DNA of 53,692 nt from an uncultured Alphaproteobacteria bacterium (GCA_947624545.1 CANQKV010000002.1:1-53692), one strand, 5' to 3'. Counted from the stretch's first letter, positions 18,538-31,425 are shown. Notes: generated from the letters alone by a model not told the origin. Numbers and translations are program-made.

Positions 18538-18550
18538 ACAGCATTGATTA

Positions 18551-18589
18551 AAAAAAAGCGAATCTGTTTTAAAGCAGATTCGTTTTTTT
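18551..18589. terminator. Bidirectional rho-independent terminator (thrS / KpsS-like gene); left edge of the polysaccharide island
   Basis: The A7 run (18551-18557), the stem cgaatctg (18559-18566) paired with cagattcg (18575-18582), and the T7 run (18583-18589) form the terminator. Confidence 0.65.
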
Positions 18590-18608
18590 AATCTTCATTT
18601 TGTAAGTA

Positions 18609-19871
18609 TTATTTTTCAGATGATCGATAAGCGATAAATCGATTGATAATTTCTTCTACGGTTAAGTTTTCTTTACTCATATCGCCGATAAATTTCAGAT
18701 ACGGAAAAAAGAAAGCGGAATCGTTTGCTTTTTCATGAGAAAACAGATAATAATTCAAAAAGAAATTCCGTATTTTTCCGATATTGGTTTGATAAGTTTT
18801 GTAATTAAAATGTCCTCTTAAATAATTTTCCAACGTGGGGAAAACGTGTTTTGCTTTATAAACGGCATCGCCTAACACGATAACGGGTTTATCATAAAAC
18901 AGGGCTTCAAAACCACTGGATGAATTAACTGTTATCACAACATCGGCTAATTGAAACAGGGTAGAGTTTTCAATGTTTTTATCTTTATGCGTCAGCCAGA
19001 CGACATTTTCAAAATTAAGTGCATAAAGTTTAGCTTCAAAATTGGCATTTTCCGAACCTTTGCGAAGATTTGAAGCCGGATGCTCTTTAATTAAACAAAC
19101 ATAATCTTTTTTGCAGAGCAAAGGCAAGATTTTTTCCAAAACGGCTTTTACGCTTTCAAAGGGAGAATAATGAACTTGATTTGCATCATCATAAAGTTGT
19201 AATGAGATAAGTGCTACTTTTTTATTGCCGATTTTATTTAATATTTGCGTTGCATTTAAATAGGAAAATTTGGATTCATATGCCTGTGAATTAATACCGC
19301 CACTCAATAAAAAATCGTCTTGAACATTTGTTGCGGGTATATTTTTAAAATCGGCAATATCGGATTTTGATAAAGCGGAGCTGCCGTTTACACCCCACGG
19401 ATCAGCCACCAACGAATCCAAGAAAGGAGCGCGCGAACAACCTAATTCCATATTAATAAAACCGATTTTTAATTCTTTTGCTGCTTGTTTGACAGCAAAA
19501 TTTGTTCCCCAACAAACAATATAATCAAACTTTTGGCGATGATAAATTTGTTTAATGAGTTTTGTATATTGACGAGATAAATCGGTATCTTCCATTAATT
19601 CTTCCCATTTTTCAATTCCGCCGTTATCCCATTCTGTCAGACAGGATTCGAAAAATTCATATTCTTTTTTGGTCGGCAAAATAAAGTTTTCTTCCCAATT
19701 TTTGTGCCTTTTGCTGTATTCAAGAAGTGTTTCCCGATTTCCGTAAATATAAAAGCGATGTTCGGTTTTATTGTCATCCAATGCTTTGGCAAAATTATCC
19801 AATATGGTAAAAAAATGCGTAAACATATTTCGAATGGGATGAGGTTCCACGTAAAATAAAAATGATGACAT
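18609..19871 (-). CDS. Capsule polysaccharide biosynthesis protein, KpsS/KpsC-like (Capsule_synth family), copy 1
   Basis: 'VALISLQLYDDANQVHYSPF', 'CLIKEHPAS' and 'VITVNSSSGFEALFYDKPVIVLGDAVY' match the conserved blocks I recall for the KpsS/KpsC beta-Kdo transferase family. It is a paralogue of 30133-31386. Confidence 0.6.
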   Translation of the reverse strand: MSSFLFYVEPHPIRNMFTHFFTILDNFAKALDDNKTEHRFYIYGNRETLLEYSKRHKNWEENFILPTKKEYEFFESCLTEWDNGGIEKWEELMEDTDLSRQYTKLIKQIYHRQKFDYIVCWGTNFAVKQAAKELKIGFINMELGCSRAPFLDSLVADPWGVNGSSALSKSDIADFKNIPATNVQDDFLLSGGINSQAYESKFSYLNATQILNKIGNKKVALISLQLYDDANQVHYSPFESVKAVLEKILPLLCKKDYVCLIKEHPASNLRKGSENANFEAKLYALNFENVVWLTHKDKNIENSTLFQLADVVITVNSSSGFEALFYDKPVIVLGDAVYKAKHVFPTLENYLRGHFNYKTYQTNIGKIRNFFLNYYLFSHEKANDSAFFFPYLKFIGDMSKENLTVEEIINRFIAYRSSEK

Positions 19872-19872
19872 A

Positions 19873-22437
19873 TTAAAACTCCGTATGATTAAAAATATTT
19901 TTAATTTCGTTCATAAAAGTAACTGTTGAGCAATTATTCAGAACATAATCAAAATTGTGTTTAATGTTTTCTTGAATGTTAATTTGATGTCTGCTTAAAA
20001 CGGCATTTTCCCACTCTTGCGGAGTAGAGCAAAGGGTTATGGCAGCTTTTCGAATACGCGTCATATCTTCAATCGGTGTTGCAAATAAAGTTGCTCCCGC
20101 AACGGAACTTTCCAAAAATTTCACGTTTGATTTGCAGTTATTAAAGCGAGACGGCATTTCTAACGGTGCCAGTGTGAAAGCTGTCGCTGACATTGAATTA
20201 AATAAATGCCAATAATCCACAACGTTGTGAAAGAAAACCCGATTTGTTTTTTGAAGCTTTTCAGATGCCGTTAAAACTCCGAAAATCAATAATTTTAAAT
20301 TTTTATCTTTTTCCAAGCATGATAATAAAACATCTTCAATCGATTCAAAATCCAAATTATGTGAAAGTGTTCCCGTGCAGTACATTAATAAATTTTTATC
20401 TTTCGGTTGATTGCGTGCTTGAATTTTTTGAGATATGTTCATAATACTTTCGGGAATAAAATTATGAACGACAAAAACCTTTGCGTGCGGATGAACATTT
20501 AAAACTTCTTTTTTCAATCCCTCCGTTGAGACGGAAACAAAGTTAAACTCCAAAAGCGCTTCTAAATTACATTGAAAAGCAGCTGTTATTTGTTTTAACG
20601 GTAATTTTGAATTTTTATATAAAGATGATTGAATAGCTGCTTCTTGATTTCCGAAAATCAAATCATCGTAATCGGCAATAACAATTTTTCCCAGATTTTT
20701 TAAAATACGAATAATATTTGTTTCAGCTTTGCAGGGACGGTGAAAAATATAAATATCGTAATAATAAGATAAAGCGTTTAAAAAGTTTGTATGTGGCGTA
20801 ATGGTTACGAACGCTCCTTGCGCCGATAAAGCTTCTGCAGGATGATAACACCGATAGCGAACGGAACCGTCTCCGATGGGGCGTCTTACCTGTTGAGTGG
20901 TGGATATATAACAAACTTTTATATTTTTCCAATCCCCTTTTTTTATGCGTTCAATAAGCCGTTTTCGGTTGGCTTTGGATTCCAAAATTTGAAAATCGTC
21001 AATATCTGTCAGTTTGCCGTTGTTTTGGTAAATACTGTTATATTTGCGTTTTTCCATAATTTTATTTAATTTATCAACAAATTCGGTATGTTTTTGTTCT
21101 TCGCCTTTTATATCTCGAATATTGTAAGATAAATGCAATCGCCAATACGTTAGTTTTTTATCTATAAAATAAATTCGATTTTGATAACAAATTTGTCGCC
21201 AGAGCCACCAATCTAAAGCTGTTTTTTTAGGCACATCAAGGAAATTGCATGTGCGAAGCAGCGACGATGCGACACAACAAGCCGAAAAAGTTAAAATATA
21301 ATTTGAAAGGGTAAATTTTTCATCGGAAATTAACCCGTTTTGAGAAATAATTTCCTGTTTTCGGTGGTAGATAACCTTTGCCATATCGAAACATCGTTCT
21401 TTGTTGCCGAAAGTTTCAACATCGTTGACAATAATTTGAACATTTTTTCCCGAATTGATTTTGTTGTTAACAGCTTCCAAATGAGCAGGATCCCAATAAT
21501 CATCGCTTTCGCAAAAGGCAATATACTCTCCTTTTGATTTTGTTAATCCGAGATAAACTGTTTCGGGAAGTCCTTTGTTTTCGCCTTTTTTGTGTTGATA
21601 TAAATGAATAAAAGAATATTTTTTAACATATTTTTTAATCACTTTAACACTGTTGTCGGTTGAACCGTCATCAACAACAATTACTTCAAAATTTGTATAG
21701 GTTTGATTGACTAAACTGTCTAATGTTTTTTTAATGTAATCTTGATAGTTATAACTTGCCACAATAACCGAGAAAAAATGATTGATTGCACATAACGGCT
21801 TTTCTTCTTTTTCAACCCATGTTCTGCCCTCTTTTTTGCCGTGTTTTTCATAGTGCAGAAGCGGATTCATCTTTGCTCTTGCCACATCGGGATTTAATCG
21901 CAAATAGGCTTTTCCGTCGAAAACAGGCGTGCAAAGACGATTTTCTTTCCAACCGACGGTTAAGTAATGTTTAATCGGATCAAGTCCGGCTGCCGCGACA
22001 TCGGGATTTTGTGCCAAATACCATTTTTTATCAAAAAAAGTTGATTTTAATATCAGTTGATAATTTTCATCAACGGGTATTTTTGTTTCTTTTTGTGACG
22101 ATGTTTCAGGTAAATTCAACCACGAGCGCCCTTCTTCTTTACCGCTTTTTTCATAATGCAGAAGCGGATTTATCTTCGCTTTCGCCACATCGGGATTTAA
22201 CCGCAAATAAGCGTTTCCGTCAAATGTTGCGCATGGTTTTTTCCCTTCTTTCCAGCCGTATTTTAAATAATGTTCGGCAGCGTTTTTGGCTTTTCCCTTT
22301 GCTTCGGGATATGTTGTAAAATACCATTTTTCATTCATAAACGGAGAGTTTTGAAGAATTAGAATATTTTTCTTTTCCGCTTTTTTTTGATGGATGAATT
22401 TTATTAAATAAAGTGCTTTATCCATTATTTTTGACAT
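19873..22437 (-). CDS. Multidomain glycosyltransferase: 33-aa shared leader, 2 'HYLxxGWxEGR' repeat modules, GT2 domain, C-terminal GT-B-like domain
   Basis: The GT2 domain is 'FSVIVASYNYQDYIKKTLDSLVNQTYTNFEVIVVDDGSTDNS' with 'CESDDYWD'. The C-terminal ~350 aa are homologous to the C-terminus of the 28235-30130 product ('RYRCYHPAEAL...IFHRPC...IADYDDLIF...VHNFIPES...PKDKNL'). The SD 'aggag' is upstream. Confidence 0.8.
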   Translation of the reverse strand: MSKIMDKALYLIKFIHQKKAEKKNILILQNSPFMNEKWYFTTYPEAKGKAKNAAEHYLKYGWKEGKKPCATFDGNAYLRLNPDVAKAKINPLLHYEKSGKEEGRSWLNLPETSSQKETKIPVDENYQLILKSTFFDKKWYLAQNPDVAAAGLDPIKHYLTVGWKENRLCTPVFDGKAYLRLNPDVARAKMNPLLHYEKHGKKEGRTWVEKEEKPLCAINHFFSVIVASYNYQDYIKKTLDSLVNQTYTNFEVIVVDDGSTDNSVKVIKKYVKKYSFIHLYQHKKGENKGLPETVYLGLTKSKGEYIAFCESDDYWDPAHLEAVNNKINSGKNVQIIVNDVETFGNKERCFDMAKVIYHRKQEIISQNGLISDEKFTLSNYILTFSACCVASSLLRTCNFLDVPKKTALDWWLWRQICYQNRIYFIDKKLTYWRLHLSYNIRDIKGEEQKHTEFVDKLNKIMEKRKYNSIYQNNGKLTDIDDFQILESKANRKRLIERIKKGDWKNIKVCYISTTQQVRRPIGDGSVRYRCYHPAEALSAQGAFVTITPHTNFLNALSYYYDIYIFHRPCKAETNIIRILKNLGKIVIADYDDLIFGNQEAAIQSSLYKNSKLPLKQITAAFQCNLEALLEFNFVSVSTEGLKKEVLNVHPHAKVFVVHNFIPESIMNISQKIQARNQPKDKNLLMYCTGTLSHNLDFESIEDVLLSCLEKDKNLKLLIFGVLTASEKLQKTNRVFFHNVVDYWHLFNSMSATAFTLAPLEMPSRFNNCKSNVKFLESSVAGATLFATPIEDMTRIRKAAITLCSTPQEWENAVLSRHQINIQENIKHNFDYVLNNCSTVTFMNEIKNIFNHTEF

Positions 22438-22540
22438 GATAAATAAACTCCTGCTTTGGAAAAAATAACATATTTGACAGCGTGTTTTTGTTGTTATCCG
22501 TTCAATGATTCGTTAATGCTTTTTGCACCAAATAAACGTT
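22339..22540 (-). repeat. Left copy of a 202-bp perfect inverted repeat (103-nt leader plus the first 33 codons of the 854-aa GT gene)
   Basis: By manual base-by-base comparison, the reverse complement of 22339-22540 is identical to 28132-28333. Confidence 0.92.
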
Positions 22541-22557
22541 CGTTTAATTGGGACAGT
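22533..22557. repeat. Left arm of a 25-bp perfect inverted repeat flanking the promoter spacer
   Basis: taaacgttcgtttaattgggacagt is the exact reverse complement of 22684-22708. Its first 8 nt overlap the inner end of the 202-bp repeat. Confidence 0.9.
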
Positions 22558-22648
22558 GAAAAAATTAAAGAAAAAATTGGAGCGTTTTATTTTGTTTAAT
22601 AAAAAAACTATATTTTTCATTACATTAGAATATAAATATAATTTTAAC

Positions 22649-22676
22649 TTGACTTATTATTTTTATTCGTTATAAT
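22649..22676 (+). promoter_or_regulatory. Near-consensus sigma-70-type promoter facing the 1261-aa gene
   Basis: TTGACT (22649-22654), a 16-nt spacer and TATAAT (22671-22676). The predicted TSS is about 22683-22685, at the first bases of the right 25-bp arm. Confidence 0.6.
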
Positions 22677-22683
22677 GCTGAAA

Positions 22684-22708
22684 ACTGTCCCAATTAAACG
22701 AACGTTTA
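22684..22708. repeat. Right arm of the 25-bp perfect inverted repeat, at the start of the 1261-aa gene leader
   Basis: actgtcccaattaaacgaacgttta is the reverse complement of 22533-22557. A degenerate third copy matching 22 of 28 nt lies at 28112-28139. Confidence 0.9.
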
Positions 22709-22729
22709 AATGAAGCAATGGAGAATTAA

Positions 22730-25700
22730 ATGCCGCTGTTAAAAACAAACGAGAAATCAGATTATGAATTATTAAATACTTCCAAGTATTTTGATAAAAA
22801 GTGGTATTTAAATCGCTATCCCGATGTGGCAAAAGCGGGGAAAGATCCGATTGAACATTATTTGAAATACGGCTGGAAAGAGGGGCGAAACCCCGGTTTA
22901 AAATTTAACTCAAATGCTTATTATCAATTAAATAAAGATGTTAATCGGAACGAAAATCCTTTGCTTCATTATTTAAAATACGGTCAATATGAAAGGCGAA
23001 AAATAAAACCCGTTGTTTCATTTTTTGAGCGGCTGTTTGTTAAAAAAACGGCGATGCAGTTATCTGATTACGATTTAATTAAAAAATCAAAATATTTTAA
23101 TGCCAAATGGTATTTAAAAACATATGCCGACGTGGCAAAAGCGGGGAAAGACCCGATTGAACATTATTTAAAATACGGCTGGAAAGAGGGGCGGAATCCG
23201 AGTAACAAGTTTTCAACGAATTCATATCTTTCTTTATATCATGATGTTAAAAAAGCAGGTGTTAATCCGCTGGTTCACTATTTAAAAAGAGGGCGTGCCG
23301 AGGGGCGCTTGAACGTTTTGCCTCTTGAACAAAAAGATATTGATAAATATAGAAAAAAATATCTGCGTTATCCACATGATGACTTTAAGAAAGTTTTTCT
23401 TTTATCGCATGAATTAACTTATACGGGTGCGCCGTTATCTTTGCTTCAAGCGGCAAAATGTTATCAATCACTGGGGTACAAAGTTACTTTATTAAGTTAT
23501 AAAGACGGTGAATTAAAAAAAGAATTTAAACAAAACAATATTAAAGTTTATATTTACAATCAAAAAGACAACAAAAAAATTGTTAAAATTGCCCTTAAAA
23601 GCGATTTTGTAATTGTCAATACGTTGGTTCCTTATCAAATGTTTGAAGTTTTGGCAAAAATTATGCCGACAATGTGGTGGGTCAGAGAAAGTGCGGCTTT
23701 ACCGGAAGCAAATGAGGATATGAAATCGGTTTTGAAAAACGCCTCAAATGTTTATGCTATGTCCCCTTATTCAAGAGATGAATTTTTAAAATATAATTCA
23801 AAAACAGCTATTTTAAAGCATGGAATTGAAGATTTATATGAAAACGTGCCAATCGATTCGAAAAACATTGTTTTTGCATTGATTGGAACAATCGGGGAAA
23901 GAAAAGGGCAAGATATTTTTATTGAAGCCGTAAAAAAATTGCCGAAAGAATTAAGGGAAAAAGCAAAGTTTTATATTGTCGGACATCCCGTTCAGAAAAA
24001 GTTTTACGAAGAAGTTAAAAAGCAAGCACAAGGCATTGACGAAATTGTTTTTAAAGAACCCATTTCCGACTTTAAGGAAATGATTAAATTTTACGAAAAT
24101 ATTTCCTGCGTTGTCGTGCCGTCGCGAGATGAACCGACATCACGCGTTGTTATTGAAGCCTATATGATGGGACGACCTGCCGTTGTATCGGATCATGTCG
24201 GAGCCAAATATTTGATTGATAACGAGAAAAACGGTTTTATTTTTCCATCGGGCAATGCCGATGAATTGGCGAAAAAATTAGAAAATTTTATTAAGAATTT
24301 TGATCAATTATATGAAAAAATGGGAAAGGCGGCACGAGAGGCATATTTAAAAAACAATACCATTTCTCTTTTGATGAAAAATCTTGAACTTGCGGCACAA
24401 AATTTGAAAAAAACAACTTTGCCGACTCCTCAAAAAACAAAATCGAAAAGTGATTATGAAATTATTGCGCAATCGAAATATTTTGATAAAGATTATTATT
24501 TAAAAACATACCCCGAGGTGGCAAAAGCGAAAATTGACCCGATAAAACATTATTTGGAAATCGGTTGGAAAGAATTTAAAAATCCCAGTGAAAAGTTTAA
24601 TACAAAAAATTATTTATATACATATCAAGATGTTTTACGGGCAAACAGAAATCCGTTATTGCATTGGGAAAAAAACGGAAAACATGAACTGCGGGAAGCG
24701 GAATTAAAGTGCATCAAAAACGGGAAATATTATGAAAATCTGCCTTTTTGGAAATATAAGGAAGAATTGGAATTGTGGTATAAATCAAGGGCGAAAAAGG
24801 AGATTGATTTAAATAATCCCCAAACATACAACGAAAAACTGCAATGGTTGAAATTGTACGATGCCAGACCGGAAAAAACAATGTTGGCAGATAAATATGA
24901 AGTAAGGGAATGGATTAAAAAGAAAATAGGAGAAGAATATTTAATACCGCTGATAGGCGTATATGAAAAATTTGATGATATAGATATTGAGAAGCTGCCG
25001 AAAAAGTTTGTCATGAAATGCACGCACGGGAGCGGTTGGAATATCATCGTGAAAGACAAAGAAGAATTCAATATAGCAGAAGCGCGGGAAAAAATGGAAC
25101 GCTGGCTGAATTCAAATTTTGCATATTCCTGCGGATTTGAATTGCAATATAAAAATATGAAACCGCGGATTATCATAGAAGAATATATGGATGACGGAAG
25201 CGGTGATTTACGGGATTATAAATTCACCTGTTTTAACGGAAAAGTCGATTTTATATGGGTTGACAGTGACAGACATACAAAACACAGAAGAACTTTATAT
25301 AGCACAAAATGGGAAAAGTTACCGTATAAAATGGGAACTCAATATGAAGCGGATGAACCCGTAGAAAAGCCGAAAGAATTATCAAAAATGCTCTCATTCG
25401 CCGCCCGACTCAGTAAGGGGTTTGCGTATGCGCGAGTTGATTTTTATGTCATCAACAATAAAGTGTATTTCGGGGAATTGACTTTTACTTCTACTTCTGG
25501 TATTGATGTTGCCGAGCCAAAATCGTTTGAGCGGCACTTGTTTCAAGCATTAAAGTTACCTCGAAAAGCCTACGATTTATCCCGACAACAATATTGTCGG
25601 GTATCAGAGGCTTATCCGCAACCGCACATTGATGTTACGGCTATTCAAAATCAACCGGAACAAAAATCTAAATCCGATTTAACCCTTTCTATCGTTATTC

Positions 25701-26515
25701 CTATCTACAATGCTTTGTCGGATGTTAAAAAATGTTTGTTCAGTTTAAACCGCGCTCATCTTCTTCCCTCAACGGAAATTTTTCTGATTGATGATTGTTC
25801 CGATACTCAAACTCAAAATTATTTGCTTTCTTTCGTTAATAAATTTAAAAAATTTCAATATGTTCGTAATCCCGTCAATTCAGGATTTATCATTTCCAGT
25901 AATAAAGGAATTGATCTTGCTCATAATGATATTGTCGTTATTTTAAACAGTGATACAAAAGTTCCGCGGGGGTTTGATGCTTTAATATCCGCTTGTTTCA
26001 TTGCCCATCCGCGCGTTGCCGTTGCTTCGCCACTCTCTACGCATTCCGGTCTTTTCTCTATTCCCGAACGCCCGCACTCCAAGCTCGATTCTATTCAGAA
26101 ATTATTGAATGATAATGTTAAACCGACTTATCCCTTAATTACACCCGAAGGATTTTGTCTTTGTTTAAATAAACGTATTATAAATAAAATAGGCAAACTC
26201 GATGAAATTTACGGATTCGGTTACTCCGAGGAAGATGATTTGATTTTAAGGGCGCTTTCAAAAGGGTATAAAACGGTTTTAATAGATAATTTAATTGTAT
26301 ATCATAAATCTCATGCTTCGTTTACCAGTGAAAGAAGATTAAAAATTTTAGAAAAAAACAGAAGAATTTTCAGGCAAAGATGGGGAAATCTGCAAGCTGA
26401 AACACGACAAGCCATGAATATGATGAATATTGTGAAAACAATCAATGACAATGTCAATCGGTTAATTGATAATAAGGAAAACCATGTTCGTTTCAAAAGT
26501 AAAAAAAGCAGGTAA
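22730..26515 (+). CDS. 1261-aa fusion enzyme: 2 repeat modules, GT4 domain, repeat module, TupA-like ATP-grasp domain, GT2 domain
   Basis: The GT4 domain is 'SRDEPTSRVVIEAYMMGRPAVVSDHVGAKYLIDNEKNGFIF'. The ATP-grasp TupA-like blocks are 'YNEKLQWLKLYD', 'FVMKCTHGSGWNIIV', 'DYKFTCFNGKVDFIWV' and 'RVDFYVINNKVYFGELTFTSTSG'. The GT2 domain is 'LSIVIPIYNALSDVKKCLFSLN...IFLIDDCSD...ILNSDT'. The SD 'ggaga' lies 6 nt upstream. Confidence 0.8.
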   Translation: MPLLKTNEKSDYELLNTSKYFDKKWYLNRYPDVAKAGKDPIEHYLKYGWKEGRNPGLKFNSNAYYQLNKDVNRNENPLLHYLKYGQYERRKIKPVVSFFERLFVKKTAMQLSDYDLIKKSKYFNAKWYLKTYADVAKAGKDPIEHYLKYGWKEGRNPSNKFSTNSYLSLYHDVKKAGVNPLVHYLKRGRAEGRLNVLPLEQKDIDKYRKKYLRYPHDDFKKVFLLSHELTYTGAPLSLLQAAKCYQSLGYKVTLLSYKDGELKKEFKQNNIKVYIYNQKDNKKIVKIALKSDFVIVNTLVPYQMFEVLAKIMPTMWWVRESAALPEANEDMKSVLKNASNVYAMSPYSRDEFLKYNSKTAILKHGIEDLYENVPIDSKNIVFALIGTIGERKGQDIFIEAVKKLPKELREKAKFYIVGHPVQKKFYEEVKKQAQGIDEIVFKEPISDFKEMIKFYENISCVVVPSRDEPTSRVVIEAYMMGRPAVVSDHVGAKYLIDNEKNGFIFPSGNADELAKKLENFIKNFDQLYEKMGKAAREAYLKNNTISLLMKNLELAAQNLKKTTLPTPQKTKSKSDYEIIAQSKYFDKDYYLKTYPEVAKAKIDPIKHYLEIGWKEFKNPSEKFNTKNYLYTYQDVLRANRNPLLHWEKNGKHELREAELKCIKNGKYYENLPFWKYKEELELWYKSRAKKEIDLNNPQTYNEKLQWLKLYDARPEKTMLADKYEVREWIKKKIGEEYLIPLIGVYEKFDDIDIEKLPKKFVMKCTHGSGWNIIVKDKEEFNIAEAREKMERWLNSNFAYSCGFELQYKNMKPRIIIEEYMDDGSGDLRDYKFTCFNGKVDFIWVDSDRHTKHRRTLYSTKWEKLPYKMGTQYEADEPVEKPKELSKMLSFAARLSKGFAYARVDFYVINNKVYFGELTFTSTSGIDVAEPKSFERHLFQALKLPRKAYDLSRQQYCRVSEAYPQPHIDVTAIQNQPEQKSKSDLTLSIVIPIYNALSDVKKCLFSLNRAHLLPSTEIFLIDDCSDTQTQNYLLSFVNKFKKFQYVRNPVNSGFIISSNKGIDLAHNDIVVILNSDTKVPRGFDALISACFIAHPRVAVASPLSTHSGLFSIPERPHSKLDSIQKLLNDNVKPTYPLITPEGFCLCLNKRIINKIGKLDEIYGFGYSEEDDLILRALSKGYKTVLIDNLIVYHKSHASFTSERRLKILEKNRRIFRQRWGNLQAETRQAMNMMNIVKTINDNVNRLIDNKENHVRFKSKKSR

Positions 26516-26621
26516 ATATTTTTTCATCGATGAGCCGAAACGTTGAAATATGTTCGGAAAATCAAGGCGTAAAATTGTAATCTCCGAATTTAATTTTTAA
26601 TTATGAATGAAAGGAATCAAT

Positions 26622-27923
26622 ATGAAAATCGGAATAATCGGAACAGGCTATGTGGGATTGCCGACGGGTGTCGGATTGGCAGAGCTGGGTAATACGGTTG
26701 TGTGCGTTGATAAATTAAAAGAAAAAATTGATTCGTTAAAGCGTGGAAAAGTTACTTTATATGAAGAAGGGTTGGAAGAACTGTATCAAAAAAATATGGC
26801 TGCGGGGCGTTTGACTTTTACAACCAATATGAAAAAAGCAATATCGGGCGCTGATGTTGTTTTGATTGCCGTCGGAACACCGCCGCATCCCGTGACACAC
26901 GAAGCCGATTTAAGTTTTATTTATGCGGCAGCAACGGAATTGGCAGAATATTTGACGGATTATACGGTTGTGGCAACAAAATCAACGGTGCCGGTGGGAA
27001 CCGGTGATAATATCGAAAAAATAATTCGAACAAAGAATCCGACGGCGCGTTTTGATGTGATTTCACTGCCCGAATTTTTACGGGAAGGTTTTGCCGTTCA
27101 TGACTTTTTTCATCCGGATCGCATTGTGGTGGGATCGAATTCGAAGAAAGCAACCGAGGTGATTAAAAAATTGTATCGACCTTTTCAGGAAAAAACAACC
27201 CTGTTGGTTGTTTCCCGCCGTTCCAGTGAAACAATCAAATATGCATCCAACGCTTTTTTGGCAATGAAAATACATTACATTAACGAAATAGCAAATTTTT
27301 GCGAAAAAGCAGGCGCAGATGTATCGGAGGTTGCCAAAGGAATGGGGCTGGATTCGCGAATCGGACCGAAGTTTTTAAATGCAGGGGTCGGATTCGGCGG
27401 CAGTTGTTTCCCGAAAGATACCATGGCAATGGCTTTTATGGGACGTATGCTCGGAACGCCGATTGAGCTGATTGAAACGACCATTGCGGGTAATAAAAAG
27501 CGTAAGAAACAAATGGCAGAGCGAATATTGAATGAAATTAAAGAAATGCCGAATGCCAAAATCGGTGTTTGGGGTTTGGCCTTTAAAAACGGCACGGATG
27601 ATTGTCGTCAAAGTCCGGCAATGGATATTATCGGCGAATTGTTGCTGCATCAGGCGAACATAACGGCTTATGACCCGAAAGCAATGGGAGCAGCCTGTCA
27701 ATTGTTAGGCGATAAAATTGATTATGCCGATGATATGTACAGTGCTGCCAAGGAAGCCGATGTGTTGGTTATTCTAACCGAATGGCCGGAATTTGCGAAT
27801 GCGGATCTTGATGTTCTGTCGCAACTGATGAATCATAAAATTATTATTGATTTCAGAAATATGTTAAACAAAGATAAGCTGACAAAAAGAGGATTTAAAT
27901 ATCAATCTGTCGGCAGAGCGTAA
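26622..27923 (+). CDS. ugd: UDP-glucose 6-dehydrogenase
   Basis: It has the Rossmann motif 'MKIGIIGTGYVGLPTG' and the catalytic 'GFGGSCFPKD'. ATG 26622 is preferred because 'aaagga' lies 6 nt upstream. The ORF-track start is 26607. Confidence 0.93.
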   Translation: MKIGIIGTGYVGLPTGVGLAELGNTVVCVDKLKEKIDSLKRGKVTLYEEGLEELYQKNMAAGRLTFTTNMKKAISGADVVLIAVGTPPHPVTHEADLSFIYAAATELAEYLTDYTVVATKSTVPVGTGDNIEKIIRTKNPTARFDVISLPEFLREGFAVHDFFHPDRIVVGSNSKKATEVIKKLYRPFQEKTTLLVVSRRSSETIKYASNAFLAMKIHYINEIANFCEKAGADVSEVAKGMGLDSRIGPKFLNAGVGFGGSCFPKDTMAMAFMGRMLGTPIELIETTIAGNKKRKKQMAERILNEIKEMPNAKIGVWGLAFKNGTDDCRQSPAMDIIGELLLHQANITAYDPKAMGAACQLLGDKIDYADDMYSAAKEADVLVILTEWPEFANADLDVLSQLMNHKIIIDFRNMLNKDKLTKRGFKYQSVGRA

Positions 27924-28131
27924 AAATGAAAAACAAAGATAAATAATAAGTAGAAAGTTAATTAATATTTTTGGTTTTCGTTTCAGATATGAAAATATAA
28001 AAGAAATCAACATTTCTTTCAATCAGTGTTGTTTATGTTAAAATCAACCGATTCGGCGGATTTTTTCATTTATTTTTAAAAATCAAACAGTTATTAAAGA
28101 ATATTTCTTATAAAATTGCACCAACTAGACC

Positions 28132-28333
28132 AACGTTTATTTGGTGCAAAAAGCATTAACGAATCATTGAACGGATAACAACAAAAACACGCTGTCAAAT
28201 ATGTTATTTTTTCCAAAGCAGGAGTTTATTTATCATGTCAAAAATAATGGATAAAGCACTTTATTTAATAAAATTCATCCATCAAAAAAAAGCGGAAAAG
28301 AAAAATATTCTAATTCTTCAAAACTCTCCGTTT
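28132..28333 (+). repeat. Right copy of the 202-bp perfect inverted repeat (103-nt leader plus the first 33 codons of the 631-aa GT gene)
   Basis: It is identical to the reverse complement of 22339-22540. Identity stops abruptly at codon 34 (R versus M) and decays to 8 of 11 matches just beyond the inner edge. Confidence 0.92.
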
Positions 28334-30130
28334 CGCAAAACAAATGAACGAAAAACAGCTTATGAGTTATTAAACACTTCCAAGTATTTTGATAAAAAGT
28401 GGTATTTAAAAACATATCCCGATGTGGCAAAGGCAGGAATTGATCCGATTAAGCATTATTTAAAATACGGCTGGAAAGAGGGGCGAAACCCCGGTCGATT
28501 ATTTGACGGGAATATGTATCTTTCATTATATGATGACGTTAAGCGAGCAGATATAAATCCGTTAGTGCATTATTTACGCTTCGGAATGAAAGAAAAACGC
28601 AAAATTCATCGTGTTTTTGAAAATAAAAAGGGGTTTGTTCAAGTTTATGAGAAAATTCTTTTAAAATTACCGTTTTATAAAACAAATGAGAAACAAACAG
28701 ATTATGAATTATTAAATACTTCCAAATATTTTGATAAAAAGTGGTATTTAAAAACATATCCCGATGTGGCAAAGGCGGGAATTGATCCGATTAAGCATTA
28801 TTTAAAATACGGCTGGAAAGAGGGGCGAAACCCCGGTCGATTATTTGACGGGAATATGTATCTTTCATTATATGATGACGTTAAGAACTCAAATATGAAT
28901 CCGTTAGTACATTACTTACGCTTCGGAATGAAAGAAAAGCGTTTATTACGTTTGTTAAGAAAAGAAAACAGTCTTGTTTCGTTGTTTAAAAAACCCGTAT
29001 TTTTAAAACGATGTAATCAAATTACAAAACAAAAAAATGACTTTAAAAATATAATAAAGCTTAAAGTTTGTTATATAACTTATACGAGGCGAGTTGTTGA
29101 TTTAATTAAAGATCCTTCCGTTCGATACAGATGTTACAATCCGTCGGAAGCTTTATCCGAAATTGCCGCAGTTGCAACAGTTTGTGATTTAAAAACATTT
29201 TTAAAATTTCCCTCTTATCATTATGATATTTATGTTTTTCATCGTCCGTGTTCAATGAACGGAAAATTTAAAAAAATTTTTCAACAACTGAAAAAACGTC
29301 ATAAAATTTTAATTGCCGATTATGATGATTTAATTTTCAGCAAAAATGTACAAACCGTTCAACAAGCCCCCATTAAATTATGTGAGGGACAAACGCTTGC
29401 TCAAACACGTCAAATTATGAATGATTTCACGGAAACATTAAAATTGTTTGATAATTTTTCCGTAACGACAGCTGCCCTTCAAAACGCCGTTTTGGAAATA
29501 AAACCAAAGGCAAATGTTTCCATTGTTCATAATTTTATACCCGAATCGGTACTTTCATTTATTAAACAACAAAATTTGCAAAATGCGCCTAAAGATAAAA
29601 ATTTAATTATGTATTGTTCAGGCGGAAAAACACATAACGAAGATTTACAATCCGTTACGCCTGCGCTGATACAAACGCTTGATGCTCATCCCGAGTTAAA
29701 ATTAATGATTGTCGGCACTATTGATGTCCCAAATGAGTTAGAACGGCACAAACAGTATGTTTATACAGAACGATGTTTATATTTATATTTATATTTATTA
29801 AAAGTAATGAGTACTGCCGCGCTTCAAATTGCGCCGTTAATTGATACACCGACAACACGATGCAAATCGAATATCAAATTTTTGGAATCGGCTTTAACGG
29901 GCTGCGCTTTAATTACTTCCGATTGCGCTGATACTGTCGCCGATGCTCAAAAAGGCGCCCATATCGGGGTTGCACACTGCCAAGAAGATTGGTATCAGTT
30001 TATTCACAATCGTGCCAAGCTGATTGATTCTAAAACCAGACAAAAAAATATTAAATATGTTGAAAAACATTATACAAAAAATGTTTTTTTAAAAGAGTTT
30101 AATCAGCTGTTGGCTCATTACAGGAGATAA
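28235..30130 (+). CDS. Glycosyltransferase-like protein: 33-aa shared leader, 2 near-identical repeat modules, C-terminal GT-B-like domain
   Basis: The N-terminal 33 aa are identical to those of the 854-aa protein. The modules read 'YELLNTSKYFDKKWYLKTYPDVAKAGIDPIKHYLKYGWKEGRNPGRLFDGNMYLSLYDDVK'. The C-terminal domain is homologous to the C-terminus of the 854-aa protein. Confidence 0.75.
   Translation: MSKIMDKALYLIKFIHQKKAEKKNILILQNSPFRKTNERKTAYELLNTSKYFDKKWYLKTYPDVAKAGIDPIKHYLKYGWKEGRNPGRLFDGNMYLSLYDDVKRADINPLVHYLRFGMKEKRKIHRVFENKKGFVQVYEKILLKLPFYKTNEKQTDYELLNTSKYFDKKWYLKTYPDVAKAGIDPIKHYLKYGWKEGRNPGRLFDGNMYLSLYDDVKNSNMNPLVHYLRFGMKEKRLLRLLRKENSLVSLFKKPVFLKRCNQITKQKNDFKNIIKLKVCYITYTRRVVDLIKDPSVRYRCYNPSEALSEIAAVATVCDLKTFLKFPSYHYDIYVFHRPCSMNGKFKKIFQQLKKRHKILIADYDDLIFSKNVQTVQQAPIKLCEGQTLAQTRQIMNDFTETLKLFDNFSVTTAALQNAVLEIKPKANVSIVHNFIPESVLSFIKQQNLQNAPKDKNLIMYCSGGKTHNEDLQSVTPALIQTLDAHPELKLMIVGTIDVPNELERHKQYVYTERCLYLYLYLLKVMSTAALQIAPLIDTPTTRCKSNIKFLESALTGCALITSDCADTVADAQKGAHIGVAHCQEDWYQFIHNRAKLIDSKTRQKNIKYVEKHYTKNVFLKEFNQLLAHYRR
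28334..28954 (+). repeat. In-frame tandem duplication, period 342 bp (114 aa), inside the 631-aa gene
   Basis: The core 28385-28543 differs from 28727-28885 at 1 of 159 positions by manual alignment. The flanks are more diverged. Confidence 0.85.
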
Positions 30131-30132: not shown

Positions 30133-31386
30133 ATGAATTTTTTATTTTATTTGGAACCGCATCCGATTCGCAATTCATATATAAATTTTGTCGGAACAAT
30201 CAGATATTTTTTGCCCGTGTTTAAAAATATATCATCTGATGATAAAATTTTTATTTACAGTAATAAAACGGCACTTGATAATATTCGGCAGAAATATAAA
30301 ATTGATTCGTCTGCTTTAATTTATCCGACGGCGGAGGAAGAACAGTTTTTCGAATCGTTTATGACGGATTGGGAAACAACAGGTATTCGTGATTGGATGA
30401 CATTAATGGCAAAACCGAATGCCCGATATGTTCAAATCATTAAAAGAGTTTGTCGGGATAATAATATTCATTATTTATTACATTGGGCAACAAATGCTTC
30501 GGTTAAACAGGCTTTAAAAGGAACAAAAGTCGGTCTTATTGATATGGAGTTGGGATGCTGTCGCGCTCCTTATTTATCAACTTTGGCTGCCGACCCTTGG
30601 GGCGTGAACGGTGGTGCTGTTTTATCAAAAGCTTCCGATAAAGATTTAAATGTTGTAGATGAAGTTAATCCTGCCGTGTTAGATTTAATGGAATTTTCAA
30701 AACATGCCGATGATGAAGCTTATTTAAAAGGATTTGAATATTTTACCAATAAAAAACTTCTTTCTTTTTTGGATAAAGGAAATAAAGTCGCTTTTATTCC
30801 GTTGCAATTATTTGATGATGCAAACTTATTGATGTATTCCCCTTTTAAAAGTCCGCTTGAAGCGTTAAAAGCCGTGTTACCGATACTCAATCAGTATCAT
30901 TATTCTTGTATTATCAAAGAACATCCGTTATCGGAAAGACGAGGCGGGTTATCCCTTAAAGCAAACGCCGAAGCCAAAAAATATGCCAAAACTTTTAAAA
31001 ATATTTTGTGGATTGATAAATCTTTTATGGATTTAAATAATGCATTGATTTATAAATTGGCGGATTTAGTCATTACAATTAACTCTTCTACCGGCTTTGA
31101 AGCCCTGTTTTATGATAAGCCCGTTGTTGTGTTGGGAGAGGCGGTTTATAAGGTTTCAGGTGTTTTCCCGACACTAAAACAATTTGTTTCCGATCAATTT
31201 AATAAAAAAGATTATTTGCTTAAAATTGCAAAAATACGTTCGTTCTTTTTAAAGAGCTATTTAATTGACGAACAAACGTTTGATTATGATTCTTTTAAAA
31301 AACGAATGGTGTTATTGGGTAATTTAAGTCGGCAACGGCTGTCAACGAAAAAAATTATTGAAATATTGTGGAAAAATAAAAATTAG
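30133..31386 (+). CDS. Capsule polysaccharide biosynthesis protein, KpsS/KpsC-like (Capsule_synth family), copy 2
   Basis: 'VAFIPLQLFDDANLLMYSPF', 'CIIKEHPLS' and 'VITINSSTGFEALFYDKPVVVLGEAVY' match the family blocks. It is colinear with 18609-19871 ('FLFYLEPHPIRN' versus 'FLFYVEPHPIRN'). The SD 'aggag' lies in the end of the upstream gene. Confidence 0.6.
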   Translation: MNFLFYLEPHPIRNSYINFVGTIRYFLPVFKNISSDDKIFIYSNKTALDNIRQKYKIDSSALIYPTAEEEQFFESFMTDWETTGIRDWMTLMAKPNARYVQIIKRVCRDNNIHYLLHWATNASVKQALKGTKVGLIDMELGCCRAPYLSTLAADPWGVNGGAVLSKASDKDLNVVDEVNPAVLDLMEFSKHADDEAYLKGFEYFTNKKLLSFLDKGNKVAFIPLQLFDDANLLMYSPFKSPLEALKAVLPILNQYHYSCIIKEHPLSERRGGLSLKANAEAKKYAKTFKNILWIDKSFMDLNNALIYKLADLVITINSSTGFEALFYDKPVVVLGEAVYKVSGVFPTLKQFVSDQFNKKDYLLKIAKIRSFFLKSYLIDEQTFDYDSFKKRMVLLGNLSRQRLSTKKIIEILWKNKN

Positions 31387-31394: not shown

Positions 31395-31425
31395 CCGTTT
31401 CTTGAAAAAGAAACGGCGATTTTTC
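31395..31425. terminator. Bidirectional terminator (KpsS-like copy 2 / merR); right edge of the polysaccharide island
   Basis: ccgtttctt (31395-31403), a gaaa loop and aagaaacgg (31408-31416) form a 9-bp stem followed by cgattttt. An A-rich run lies upstream. Confidence 0.65.

What the first reader, a model, noticed from the sequence alone, without database searches (positions are those of the whole stretch)
22339..28333. 202-bp perfect inverted repeats bracket a 5.6-kb promoter-bearing core between two mirror-image polysaccharide modules: a candidate operon flip-flop
Seen in sequence: 22339-22540 is the exact reverse complement of 28132-28333, 202 of 202 by manual comparison. Each copy is a 103-nt leader plus codons 1-33 (MSKIMDKALYLIKFIHQKKAEKKNILILQNSPF) of an outward-facing glycosyltransferase gene, 19873-22437 on the minus strand and 28235-30130 on the plus strand. 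Each of those genes is tightly coupled to a KpsS-like gene. Beyond codon 33 the paralogues are strongly diverged, with different domain content and, by eye, well under half identity in the shared C-terminal domain. Just inside the repeats identity decays to 8 of 11. Such a sharp island of 100% identity in otherwise old paralogues suggests ongoing homogenisation by recombination. Inference: recombination between the repeats would invert 22541-28131, which carries the only near-consensus promoter I find in the locus (22649-22676) followed by the 1261-aa enzyme and ugd. In the present orientation promoter -> big enzyme -> ugd reads on into the right module with no strong terminator in 27924-28131, ending at the 31395 terminator. 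After inversion the same unit would read into the left module, ending at the 18551 terminator. I found no comparably good -35/-10 pair inside the shared leader. This would act as a genetic switch choosing between two alternative glycosyltransferase/KpsS-like pairs, giving surface-polysaccharide variation. No recombinase gene is present in the window, so RecA-dependent exchange or a trans-encoded invertase would be required.
Basis: partly seen in the sequence, partly recalled or inferred. Interest (0 to 1): 0.85.

Follow-up and report, generated by a model that had tools for sequence, protein, structure and literature searches.

The report
Candidate nested DNA-inversion polysaccharide switch
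Two mirror-image sets of sugar-coat genes in an uncultured gut alphaproteobacterium share a perfect 202-base inverted repeat whose inner ends lie exactly on invertase-like DNA sites that also bracket the only strong promoter, so the locus looks like a flip switch for surface polysaccharide, but no flipped copy has been seen.

Summary
22339-22540 is the exact reverse complement of 28132-28333, and each copy is a 103-nt leader plus codons 1-33 of an outward-facing glycosyltransferase gene coupled to a KpsS-like gene. The gene bodies are only 36-50% identical. Independent low-coverage contigs from another sample cross both repeats, so this is not a misassembly. They show only the orientation seen in the window.

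The perfect repeats begin on the central dinucleotide of a ~30-bp palindromic site, here called sites L and R. A third copy, site B, lies 160 bp from L in inverted orientation. L and B bracket a 126-bp cassette holding the only near-consensus promoter. Pairs of the same site bracket promoter cassettes at the heads of three other polysaccharide operons in close relatives. One of those cassettes is demonstrably homologous and faces away from its operon.

My best reading (confidence about 0.4) is a hix-like, site-specific nested inversion system. The small promoter cassette is the primary flipping unit. The 5.6-kb flip is a second, possible level. The main rival is that the sites are operators for resolvase-derived regulators and the repeat is a gene-conversion by-product. 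No recombinase gene is in the window. Only read-level data can settle the question.

The parts
18552..18589 (.). Bidirectional hairpin terminator at the left edge of the island, between thrS and the left KpsS-like gene
   Evidence: Terminator-like sites on both strands
18609..19871 (-). Left KpsS-like gene (420 aa; Capsule_synth plus GT99 N-terminal domain)
   Evidence: Pfam. Only a weak KpsS match in NCBIfam. 43% identical to the right copy.
19873..22437 (-). Left glycosyltransferase (854 aa): shared N-terminus, two ~100-aa repeat units, a GT2 domain and a conserved C-terminal domain
22339..22540 (.). Left copy of the perfect 202-bp inverted repeat (codons 1-33, the 103-nt leader, and the outer half-site and core of site L)
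   Evidence: Crossed by independent contig L013.
22525..22554 (.). Site L: half-site GCACCAAATAAACG (22525-22538), core TT (22539-22540), half-site CGTTTAATTGGGAC (22541-22554)
22558..22683 (.). 126-bp AT-rich cassette between the L and B arms. With the inner half-sites (22541-22700) it is the candidate 160-bp invertible unit.
   Evidence: Pair I16: 35-nt arms at 89%, 25 nt exact. The interior is homologous to the L025 cassette only in reverse complement.
22649..22676 (+). Sigma-70-like promoter TTGACT-16-TATAAT. Predicted start is near 22683, so transcripts read out through site B.
   Evidence: Best match (11 of 12) in 18000-32500
22687..22716 (.). Site B: half-site GTCCCAATTAAACG (22687-22700), core AA (22701-22702), half-site CGTTTAAATGAAGC (22703-22716). 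It is inverted relative to site L.
   Evidence: The core TTAAACGAACGTTTAAA is conserved 47 nt upstream of the orthologous gene in L029.
22730..26515 (+). 1261-aa multidomain enzyme (N-terminal repeat units, GT4, TupA-like ATP-grasp, GT2)
   Evidence: Pfam. Orthologues at about 50% identity in related MAGs.
26622..27923 (+). ugd (UDP-glucose 6-dehydrogenase, 433 aa as called)
   Evidence: Pfam. 95.6% nt identical to a ugd in an LPS-core locus of a close relative.
27924..28117 (.). AT-rich spacer between ugd and site R. No terminator-like site and no plus-strand promoter match.
28118..28147 (.). Site R: half-site GCACCAACTAGACC (28118-28131), core AA (28132-28133), half-site CGTTTATTTGGTGC (28134-28147). 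It is inverted relative to L and direct relative to B.
   Evidence: The TAGACC half-site variant is shared with L029 site S1.
28132..28333 (.). Right copy of the perfect 202-bp inverted repeat. It starts on the core dinucleotide of site R.
   Evidence: Crossed by independent contig L011.
28235..30130 (+). Right glycosyltransferase (631 aa): shared N-terminus, two repeat units 91% identical to each other, and the conserved C-terminal domain
30133..31386 (+). Right KpsS-like gene (417 aa)
31395..31416 (.). Bidirectional hairpin terminator at the right edge of the island

Best explanation
The locus is a site-specific DNA-inversion switch with three related hix-like sites. It is not simply a pair of long homologous repeats. 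Each site has two ~14-bp half-sites (consensus GCACCAAnTAAACG) around a 2-bp core.

Sites L and B are inverted relative to each other and share the same core. They bracket a 160-bp unit that carries the only strong promoter. A trans-encoded small serine invertase is inferred to flip this cassette. In the orientation seen, the promoter drives the 1261-aa enzyme, then ugd, then by read-through the right GT and KpsS-like genes. Flipped, it would drive the left GT and KpsS-like genes through the shared leader.

Site R lies at the tail of the core and is inverted relative to L with the same core dinucleotide. The same enzyme could do this, or RecA acting on the 202-bp homology. That gives a nested system with up to four expression states.

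The 202-bp tract of perfect identity is best explained as gene conversion that started at the recombinase cleavage point (the site core) and ran outward until it met an 18-aa indel.

Shown: the repeats, the three sites, their geometry, the promoter match, and the recurrence of site pairs in relatives. Inferred: that the sites are recombination sites, that any inversion occurs, the read-through, and the effect on the polysaccharide.
For: (1) The 24-nt site occurs three times in the 53.7-kb window against 0.00 expected, once in each GT-gene leader.

(2) The perfect L/R identity starts on the core dinucleotide. The first mismatch is the first base of the inner half-site.

(3) L and B share 25 exact nt (inner half, core and 8 more), while their outer halves differ. 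The L025 pair shows the same pattern. As I recall it, hixL and hixR show this pattern too.

(4) The promoter sits 7 nt from site B and reads out through it.

(5) Site pairs 40-400 nt apart number 7 in 325 kb, against 0.2 in shuffles. Five of the seven fall at four places, each at the head of a polysaccharide operon: the window, L025/L026, L029 and L030 (two overlapping pairs). The other two lie inside coding regions and look like chance.

(6) Cores differ between loci (AA, TC/GA, AC/GT) but are complementary within each of the four pairs.

(7) The window cassette interior aligns to the L025 cassette only in reverse complement: score 30 against 5 forward, with a null of 11.6 +/- 4.7 and a maximum of 24.5.

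(8) In L025 the 11-of-12 promoter faces away from its operon and runs into a hairpin followed by U8. In L029 the best promoter match also faces away. This is what a switch caught in the OFF position looks like.

(9) The site B core is identical at the orthologous position in L029, although the proteins are only ~50% identical.

(10) RNA hairpin stability is not conserved among sites, which points to a protein-binding DNA site.

(11) Small serine recombinases and derived HTH_7 proteins lie at or near polysaccharide loci in this clade.

(12) In relatives the GT + KpsS-like pairs are internal operon genes without promoters of their own.
Against: No flipped copy of either the 160-bp cassette or the 5.6-kb core was seen. 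L013 and L011 match the window, and L025 is identical to L026. These are consensus assemblies at 2-6x coverage, so the test is weak.

No recombinase gene is in the window.

The resolvase-like genes next to the sites in relatives are not active enzymes. The L030 protein lacks the catalytic Ser and Arg. The L025 protein has only HTH_7-type helix-turn-helix repeats. This fits an operator role for the sites.

The intact resolvase in L015 has no such sites nearby.

Promoters are consensus matches only. L025 also has a 9-of-12 plus-strand match in its cassette.

B and R are in direct orientation, so a recombinase without a topological filter would delete the core.

The coincidence of the repeat end with the site core is a single observation.

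Glycosyltransferase families are under-represented among predicted gene-altering programmed inversions, and the 5.8-kb distance between the two genes exceeds the <=2588-bp value that paper found typical (PMC9881135).
Confidence: 0.4

Rival explanations
1. No programmed inversion. The palindromic sites are operators for resolvase-derived HTH_7 regulators, in the way Tn3/gamma-delta resolvase represses at res sites (from my own knowledge). Each of the three GT units is a separately regulated transcription unit. The 202-bp identity is a by-product of concerted evolution, that is gene conversion, among paralogous 5' ends. Rare RecA-mediated inversions may happen but are not used.
For: The resolvase homologues next to the sites are catalytically dead (L030) or consist only of HTH_7-type repeats (L025).

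L030 has four sites in two close pairs upstream of the dead-resolvase gene, which resembles res subsites.

A network of exact patches of 108, 50, 35, 33, 32 and 29 nt links the N-terminal repeat units of the three GT genes, so conversion is active here anyway.

The outer end of the repeat coincides with an indel, as expected for a conversion tract that stops at a heterology.

Only one orientation is seen in every contig.
Against: The strongest promoters in the L025 and L029 cassettes point away from the operons. In L025 the promoter runs into a terminator-like hairpin. That is hard to explain for a fixed operator-promoter region.

The window and L025 cassettes are homologous but in opposite orientations relative to their operons.

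No promoter match of 9 of 12 or better appears upstream of the left or right leader among the listed matches.
Confidence: 0.3
2. RecA-dependent exchange between the 202-bp repeats inverts 22541-28131. The always-on promoter, large enzyme and ugd unit then reads alternately into the right or the left GT + KpsS-like module, much as the Campylobacter fetus sap element works. The palindromic sites play no part in recombination.
For: The inverted repeat is a perfect 202 bp made of leader plus 5' coding sequence in oppositely oriented paralogues. There is one strong promoter inside the segment, no terminator after ugd, and terminators at both outer ends. No recombinase gene is in the window. From general knowledge, homology of this length supports RecA-dependent exchange at roughly 1e-6 to 1e-4 per generation.
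Against: Only the as-is orientation is seen.

This model leaves several things unexplained: why the repeats end on the core of a conserved site, why a third site brackets the promoter, and why the same sites recur in relatives that have no long repeats.

An untranslated gap of 311 nt between ugd and the right GT makes read-through less certain.
Confidence: 0.2
3. The L-cassette-B unit and its relatives are copies of a miniature inverted-repeat transposable element that carries an outward promoter, like the Correia elements of Neisseria (from my own knowledge). They inserted in either orientation. The 202-bp repeat is unrelated gene conversion.
For: The units are ~200 bp with 22-35-nt terminal inverted repeats. 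The interiors are homologous between the window and L025 and lie in opposite orientations relative to neighbouring genes.
Against: Every copy found lies at the head of a polysaccharide operon. None was found elsewhere in 325 kb. The site B core is conserved at an orthologous position although the surrounding intergenic DNA has diverged beyond recognition. I saw no target-site duplication. Site R is a solitary full site with no cassette.
Confidence: 0.05
4. The repeat or the orientation is an assembly artefact of a short-read metagenome bin.
For: The window is a MAG contig. A 202-bp inverted repeat exceeds usual k-mer sizes, so the orientation of the core rests on read pairs. Contig L028 ends 55 nt inside the right repeat and carries an unrelated 456-nt 5' end.
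Against: Two contigs from a different sample's assembly cross the full left and right repeats into unique sequence on both sides, at 99.8-99.96% identity and in the same orientation.
Confidence: 0.02

Closest known systems
Campylobacter fetus sap locus (nested inversion of a promoter-bearing ~6-kb element between oppositely oriented sapA homologues). Details are from my own knowledge of Dworkin & Blaser 1996-97, because the papers are not held. [quoted passage not shown]
   Same: A promoter-bearing segment of several kb that also carries genes. It is flanked by oppositely oriented paralogues whose 5' UTR and first codons are conserved and serve as the inverted repeats. There is a single promoter for alternative outward cassettes, and nested inversions are possible.
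   Different: In C. fetus the promoter faces outward into the cassette and the variable genes encode S-layer proteins. The 5' homology is several hundred bp, no specific palindromic sites are known, and inversion is mainly RecA-dependent. Here the promoter faces into the core, and the outward units are glycosyltransferase/KpsS-like pairs that would be reached by read-through. The repeats end on hix-like sites. Inversion has not been observed.
Hin/hix and the Gin, Cin and Pin DNA invertase systems (PMC3798978; site details from my own knowledge)
   Same: Recombination sites are built from two imperfect half-sites around a 2-bp core. Paired sites lie in inverted orientation with matching cores. 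The inner half and core form a perfect inverted repeat while the outer halves differ. The invertible segment carries a promoter that reads out through one site. The inner half-site ends in AAAC(C/G).
   Different: No invertase gene lies in or next to the segment. The half-sites are ~14 nt with a different outer sequence. A 126-bp interior is too short to hold an invertase gene or an obvious Fis enhancer. There are three sites, one in direct orientation. Activity has not been shown.
Invertible promoters ('invertons') of capsular polysaccharide loci in gut bacteria: Bacteroides fragilis PSA-H with the global recombinase Mpi, and Akkermansia cps1 (PMC13343947)
   Same: Short inverted repeats flank a promoter segment of 100-200 bp at the head of polysaccharide operons in a gut commensal. 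A repeat motif is shared among several loci. The recombinase is not necessarily adjacent.
   Different: This is a different phylum (uncultured Alphaproteobacteria), a different motif, and a sigma-70-type promoter. The cassette sits between two divergent operons, so it would toggle between them rather than switch on and off. It is also nested in a 5.6-kb segment bounded by 202-bp repeats.
Gene-altering programmed inversions (Milman et al. 2023, PMC9881135)
   Same: Long inverted repeats (>=44 bp) lie inside oppositely oriented paralogous coding sequences.
   Different: Here the repeats cover the 5' ends of head-to-head genes, so inversion would swap upstream context and not coding sequence. The distance between the coding sequences (5.8 kb) exceeds the <=2588 bp found typical. 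Glycosyltransferase families were under-represented in that survey.
Tn3/gamma-delta res sites, where resolvase also acts as a repressor (from my own knowledge)
   Same: Palindromic binding sites for a resolvase-type HTH protein lie in a divergent promoter region. This is the model for the operator rival.
   Different: There is no transposon context. The adjacent homologues in relatives lack catalytic residues.

Membership tests
Homologous-recombination invertible element of the C. fetus sap type | Long inverted repeats made of the 5' UTR plus 5' coding region of oppositely oriented paralogues | tested here: met
   202 of 202 nt, made of a 103-nt leader plus 33 codons
Homologous-recombination invertible element of the C. 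fetus sap type | A single promoter inside the invertible segment serves the alternative outward cassettes | tested here: inconclusive
   The only 11-of-12 promoter lies inside the segment, but it faces the core genes. The outward modules would depend on unproven read-through.
Homologous-recombination invertible element of the C. fetus sap type | Both orientations coexist in populations or strains | tested here: not met
   Only the as-is junctions appear in the window and in L011/L013. This is one other sample at ~2.5x coverage, so power is very low.
Homologous-recombination invertible element of the C. fetus sap type | Inversion depends on RecA | not testable with these tools
   Needs genetics. 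recA is not in the window.
Serine DNA-invertase system (Hin/hix type) | Two sites, each with two imperfect half-sites around a 2-bp core, in inverted orientation with matching cores | tested here: met
   L (core TT), B (core AA) and R (core AA). Matching cores also occur in the L025, L029 and L030 pairs.
Serine DNA-invertase system (Hin/hix type) | An invertase gene inside or adjacent to the invertible segment | tested here: not met
   No Resolvase or integrase domain was found in the window ORFs scanned. Relatives carry dead or HTH-only homologues next to the sites and one intact resolvase elsewhere.
Serine DNA-invertase system (Hin/hix type) | A recombinational enhancer with Fis sites | not testable with these tools
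   No model is available. The 126-bp interior leaves little room for one.
Serine DNA-invertase system (Hin/hix type) | Cleavage and exchange at the core dinucleotide | not testable with these tools
   There is only an indirect hint: the perfect L/R identity starts on the core.
Gut-bacterial promoter invertons (PhaseFinder type) | Inverted repeats of 10-40 bp flanking a segment of 100-750 bp that contains a promoter | tested here: met
   25 nt exact (35 nt at 89%) flanking 126 nt that hold TTGACT-16-TATAAT
Gut-bacterial promoter invertons (PhaseFinder type) | Location at the head of surface-structure operons, with a repeat motif shared between loci | tested here: met
   Four loci, all at polysaccharide operon heads. 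7 pairs found against 0.2 expected.
Gut-bacterial promoter invertons (PhaseFinder type) | Reads supporting both orientations | not testable with these tools
   No reads are available. The contigs show one orientation per locus. Homologous cassettes at different loci do lie in opposite orientations relative to their operons.
Group 2 (KpsS/KpsC) capsule locus | Bona fide KpsS and KpsC plus KpsMT and KpsDE export genes | tested here: not met
   KpsS equivalog scores of 34-36 bits against a 600-bit cutoff. No KpsC, KpsM/T or KpsD/E in the window. These proteins should be called members of the Capsule_synth/GT99-like family only.

The most novel reading that the evidence does not exclude
A three-site, two-level (nested) inversion system in an uncultured gut alphaproteobacterium. 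One trans-acting serine invertase flips a 160-bp promoter cassette (L x B) and also a 5.6-kb enzyme-encoding core (L x R). This would give four heritable expression states: core plus right module, left module alone, core plus left module, and right module alone. The 202-bp perfect repeats would be scars of break-induced gene conversion started at the recombinase cleavage site. They would also keep both modules plug-compatible with the switch. The same site family would control several polysaccharide and LPS operons genome-wide, with dead resolvase paralogues as accessory regulators.
Probability: 0.2. Interest if true: 0.75.

Novelty: new variant of a known kind. Interest (0 to 1): 0.58.

Why it matters
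Phase-variable surface polysaccharides shape how gut bacteria deal with phages, immunity and mucus. The known switches come almost entirely from Bacteroidota, Akkermansia and a few pathogens.

If this reading is right, it would add three things. First, an inverton family with a defined hix-like site in a little-known, uncultured alphaproteobacterial gut lineage. Second, a design in which one promoter cassette toggles between two divergent operons instead of switching one on and off. Third, a second nested level that re-wires which glycosyltransferase module is co-transcribed with the core enzymes.

The exact match between a long homogenised tract and a recombinase core would also be a concrete case of site-specific cleavage seeding gene conversion.

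The sites give a specific sequence motif that can be searched in long-read gut metagenomes, so the idea can be tested directly. If the sites turn out to be operators, the finding is still useful. It would be an example of dead resolvases recruited as regulators of polysaccharide operons.

Tried and rejected
**Exact-protein look-ups.** Look-ups for window ORFs failed, at least for ugd because the longest-ORF start differs from the called start. Homologue searches recovered the contigs instead.

**JGI metagenome scans.** A 35-mer from the repeat found nothing. The 19-mer site core gave nine unrelated single hits with no conserved flanks.

**Long repeats in relatives.** The GTDB relatives scanned (seven of L001-L010) have no inverted repeats of 40 nt or more around the orthologous enzymes. 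L014 and L015 carry a single, unidirectional GT + KpsS-like pair. The mirror-image architecture is therefore not conserved.

**RNA element.** There is no Rfam match in 22300-28400. Hairpin stability is not conserved among the sites. I rejected an RNA role as the main function.

**Novel fusion junction.** I considered that the outer end of the right repeat was a new junction. I rejected this because the right gene's sequence across that boundary is homologous to its own inter-repeat linker. The left gene instead lacks 18 aa there.

**Partner site for R.** No partner site or cassette exists in the ugd-R spacer.

**ugd neighbours as orientation evidence.** The 98%-identical ugd genes lie in a different (LPS-core) locus, so they say nothing about orientation. 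They did, however, lead to the second inverton-like cassette.

**Contig L028.** It ends inside the right repeat, so it is uninformative about orientation.

**L004 motif hit.** It lies inside a coding region and is a chance match.

**Solved structures.** There are no sequence relatives of the right GT or the right KpsS-like protein in the PDB.

**C. fetus papers.** The primary papers could not be retrieved.

Full report
**1.

The repeat finder reports inverted arms 22339-22551 and 28121-28333, 213 nt at 99% complementarity and 5569 nt apart. A base-by-base comparison gives 202 of 202 matches for 22339-22540 against 28132-28333, then 8 of 11 on the inner side. This is the longest exact repeat in the island. 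The next longest is a 108-nt direct repeat between the two tandem N-terminal units of the right gene.

Each copy is a 103-nt leader plus codons 1-33 (MSKIMDKALYLIKFIHQKKAEKKNILILQNSPF) of an outward-facing gene. The genes are 19873-22437 on the minus strand (854 aa) and 28235-30130 on the plus strand (631 aa). Each gene lies 1-2 nt from a 420- or 417-aa gene with Capsule_synth and GT99-N domains.

Beyond codon 33 the paralogues are old:
- The N-terminal repeat units are about 50% identical.
- The C-terminal domain is 36% identical.
- Only the left gene has a GT2 domain.
- The KpsS-like pair is 43% identical.

The other anatomical claims also hold. The promoter at 22649-22676 (TTGACT-16-TATAAT) is the best match in 18000-32500. 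No terminator-like site follows ugd. Bidirectional hairpins close the island at 18552-18589 and 31395-31416. No recombinase domain was found in the ORFs scanned across the window.

**2. Source and context**

The closest genomes are uncultured gut Alphaproteobacteria such as Candidatus Enterousia and ruminal and faecal MAGs. Best-segment identity to the 1261-aa enzyme is at most 63%.

The island spans 18.6-31.4 kb and has 31-37% G+C, apart from about 40% over ugd. The flanks are about 38-45% G+C. It lies between thrS and an HU/IHF-family gene, a MerR-family gene, fabH and plsX.

'KpsS-like' should be read loosely. The match to the KpsS equivalog is 34-36 bits against a cutoff of 600. No kpsC, kpsMT or kpsDE genes are present.

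In relatives, the GT + KpsS-like pair is a conserved two-gene unit inside unidirectional operons, without its own leader. None of the relatives scanned has a mirror-image duplicate or long inverted repeats.

**3. Not an artefact, but only one orientation seen**

The window is an NCBI MAG contig. Independent ENA assemblies contain the same organism at about 2.5x coverage.

| Contig | Sample | Matches window | Identity | Informative? |
|---|---|---|---|---|
| L013 | ERZ27249643 | 22688-17641 | 99.96% | Crosses the left repeat and the promoter cassette |
| L011 | ERZ27249643 | 27433-30384 | 99.76% | Crosses the right repeat, from ugd into unique right-GT sequence |
| L012 | ERZ27249148 | 28489-31457 | 98-100% | Does not cross a repeat |
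| L028 | ERZ27249360 | 24204-28186 | 100% | Ends inside the right repeat |

Both junctions in L011 and L013 have the window's orientation. So the repeat is real and the as-is arrangement is the majority form in at least two data sets. Nothing can be said about minority forms.

**4.

A 24-nt element, CCAATTAAACG-AA-CGTTTATTTGG, occurs three times in the window against 0.00 expected. There is one copy in the leader of each of the three GT genes. Each copy resolves into two ~14-nt half-sites (consensus GCACCAAnTAAACG) around a 2-nt core.

| Site | First half-site | Core | Second half-site |
|---|---|---|---|
| L | 22525-22538 | TT, 22539-22540 | 22541-22554 |
| B | 22687-22700 | AA, 22701-22702 | 22703-22716 |
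| R | 28118-28131 | AA, 28132-28133 | 28134-28147 |

Three facts follow.

(a) The perfect 202-nt repeat ends at 22540 and starts at 28132, which is exactly on the core dinucleotide. The first mismatch is the first base of the inner half-site.

(b) L and B are inverted relative to each other. They share 25 exact nt, made of the inner half, the core and 8 more. Their outer halves differ. They bracket 126 nt that contain the promoter. Its -10 element ends 7 nt before the shared sequence, so transcripts read out through site B.

(c) R is inverted relative to L and direct relative to B.

**5. The site family recurs in close relatives**

A ugd gene 95.6% identical in nucleotide sequence lies in an LPS-core/heptose locus (L025, L026, L027) from the same ENA project.

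*L025.* Upstream of that operon, a 22-nt inverted repeat at 95% with the same sequence (TGCACCAATTAAACGG.GGTTT) brackets 134 nt. The inner halves and core are again perfect and the outer halves differ. The cassette's best promoter is TTGACA-17-TATACT, 11 of 12. It lies next to the distal site and points away from the operon. It runs into a hairpin followed by U8.

*Cassette homology.* The interior of the window cassette aligns to the L025 interior only in reverse complement. The score is 30, against 5 forward. Shuffles give 11.6 +/- 4.7 with a maximum of 24.5.

*L029.* This locus carries a 51% orthologue of the 1261-aa enzyme. The core TTAAACGAACGTTTAAA of site B is conserved 47 nt upstream of the orthologous start. 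A partner, ATAGACC-TT-CGTTTAG, lies 119 nt upstream in inverted orientation. The best promoter match between them also faces away from the gene. The TAGACC half-site variant is shared with the window's site R.

*L030.* This locus has another ~50% orthologue. Four sites lie in the 282-nt region upstream of a resolvase-like gene that heads an operon of rmlABCD, GT2, RgpF and the large GT.

*Statistics.* Over 325 kb of loci plus the window, there are 7 pairs of sites with at most 2 mismatches lying 40-400 nt apart. Shuffles give 0.2. Five of the seven fall at four places (L030 contributes two overlapping pairs), each at the head of a polysaccharide operon. The other two lie inside coding regions and look like chance. 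Cores differ between loci (AA, TC/GA, AC/GT) but are complementary within each of the four real pairs.

*RNA structure.* Hairpin stability is not conserved across sites. The values range from -3.5 to -16.3 kcal/mol, with z-scores from +0.5 to -5.5. There is no Rfam match. The conserved feature is therefore a DNA site for a protein.

**6. Most likely mechanism**

The geometry is that of serine-invertase crossover sites. There are two imperfect half-sites around a 2-bp core. The paired sites are inverted with matching cores. The inner half and core form a perfect repeat. The promoter reads out through one site. Hin inverts about 1 kb between two 26-bp hix sites to re-orient a promoter (PMC3798978). 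Further hix details here are from memory.

Invertible promoters at capsule loci are common in gut bacteria, with recombinases that can act in trans (PMC13343947).

I therefore commit to a nested, site-specific switch:
- L x B flips the 160-bp promoter unit. This toggles the promoter between the left module and the operon of core plus right module.
- L x R inverts the 5.6-kb core. The same enzyme could do this, or RecA acting on the 202-bp homology.
- The 202-bp identity tract is most simply a gene-conversion tract. It would start at the recombinase cleavage point and stop at the 18-aa indel that separates the two genes after codon 33.

My confidence is about 0.4. The steps from 'site' to 'recombination' to 'phenotype' are all inference.

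**7. Rivals**

*Operators (0.3).* The resolvase-like protein next to the sites in L030 lacks the catalytic Ser and Arg: it reads IGYTLSPADSD where active enzymes read IGYIRVSTIDQ. The L025 protein consists only of HTH_7-type repeats. Both share a very similar recognition helix region. The sites could therefore be their operators, as resolvase represses at res, and the 202-bp tract could be concerted evolution. Exact patches of 29-108 nt link the repeat units of all three GT genes. Against this rival are the outward-facing 'dead-end' promoters in L025 and L029, and the opposite orientation of homologous cassettes.

*RecA-only flip-flop (0.2).* This is possible for any perfect 202-bp inverted repeat. 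It does not explain the sites.

*MITE (0.05).* Against this, every copy lies at a polysaccharide operon head, and site B is conserved at an orthologous position.

*Artefact (0.02).* Excluded by L011 and L013.

A survey of gene-altering programmed inversions found long repeats (>=44 bp) to be typical, but also short distances between genes (<=2588 bp). It found glycosyltransferase families under-represented (PMC9881135). The 5.6-kb level is therefore atypical for that class.

**8. Comparison and novelty**

In function, the closest analogue of the 5.6-kb level is the C. fetus sap element. The closest analogues of the small level are Hin/hix and the CPS invertons of Bacteroides and Akkermansia.

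Membership in any of these families is unproven. The defining feature, coexistence of both orientations, was not met in the little data available. No recombinase gene is adjacent.

If real, this is a new variant of a known kind. It would be a toggle between divergent polysaccharide operons, nested in a larger invertible core, in a new lineage and with a new site motif.

**9. Verdict**

Interest is 0.58. Read-level orientation analysis is the decisive test, and it is cheap.

Noticed in passing
window 26605-27945; L025 9985-11324: The island's ugd is a recent copy of a housekeeping-type ugd. It is 95.6% nt (98% aa) identical to the ugd in an LPS-core/heptose locus (rmlABCD, GT9, hldE, gmhA, ugd, GT8) found in other samples of the same ENA project. 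Homology is limited to the gene plus about 20 nt on each side. Its G+C (0.40) matches the genome and not the island (0.31-0.35).
   Followed up: partly
L025 5908-6110 (identical in L026): A second inverton-like cassette. A 22-nt inverted repeat with the same site sequence flanks 134 nt upstream of the LPS operon. Its 11-of-12 promoter faces away from the operon into a hairpin followed by U8. The first gene after the cassette encodes a 211-aa protein made of resolvase-type HTH_7 repeats.
   Followed up: partly
L030 4343-4909; L015 9524-10114: A 188-aa resolvase homologue that lacks the catalytic Ser and Arg heads a polysaccharide operon in a relative. It is preceded by four TAAACG-NN-CGTTTA-type sites. 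An intact 196-aa resolvase lies about 5 kb from the GT + KpsS-like pair in another relative. Dead resolvases may have been recruited as regulators in this clade.
   Followed up: partly
window 22730-23310, 24406-24693, 28312-28941, 21820-22330: A ~100-aa N-terminal repeat unit (…YELLNTSKYFDKKWYLKTYPDV…HYLKYGWKEGRNP…) occurs two or three times in each of the three GT proteins. Pfam does not recognise it. It accounts for most distant database hits, which cover 29-36% of the query and come from many polysaccharide enzymes. The copies show concerted evolution, with exact patches of up to 108 nt.
   Followed up: partly
window 22758-22897 vs 28376-28495 and 28698-28837: Direct repeats of about 89% identity over ~150 nt (35 nt exact) link the 5' end of the 1261-aa gene to the right GT gene. 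Homologous exchange between them would delete the whole core and fuse the two genes.
   Followed up: no
window 29776-29798; L011: A (TTTATA)n hexamer run lies inside the right GT gene and encodes LYLYLY. The window has one more unit than contig L011 from another sample (631 against 629 aa), so this is in-frame length variation.
   Followed up: partly
window ~28680-28690 and ~29281-29298; L012: In sample ERZ27249148 the right GT gene carries an 11-nt deletion (AAACAAATGAG) and a second discontinuity. It is called as two ORFs of 171 and 283 aa. This is either a disrupted allele or a low-coverage assembly error.
   Followed up: no
L028 1-456, joined to window 24204: In sample ERZ27249360 the contig joins an unrelated upstream region and dapA-like 5' end (MAIRFDAGEVITAMVTPFDK…) in frame to the middle of the 1261-aa gene. 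The result is an 802-aa ORF that lacks the GT4 part. It could be an assembly chimera or a real rearrangement.
   Followed up: no
window 28118-28147, minus strand: Read on the minus strand, site R is a strong hairpin (-16.3 kcal/mol on the plus strand, z = -5.5) followed by UUUUAU. It could stop antisense transcripts from entering the core. Sites L and B have no such tail.
   Followed up: no
window 31437-32075: An HU/IHF-family gene and a MerR-family gene lie directly next to the island's right terminator. HU and IHF are accessory factors in several inversion systems, but I recall this gene order (plsX, fabH, ihfA-like, merR-like) as common in Alphaproteobacteria (from my own knowledge, not checked here).
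   Followed up: no
window 34509-37217 and 15731-16516: A 902-aa ORF and a 261-aa ORF have no Pfam match. The 902-aa ORF has only a faint GspN-like NCBIfam hit.
   Followed up: no
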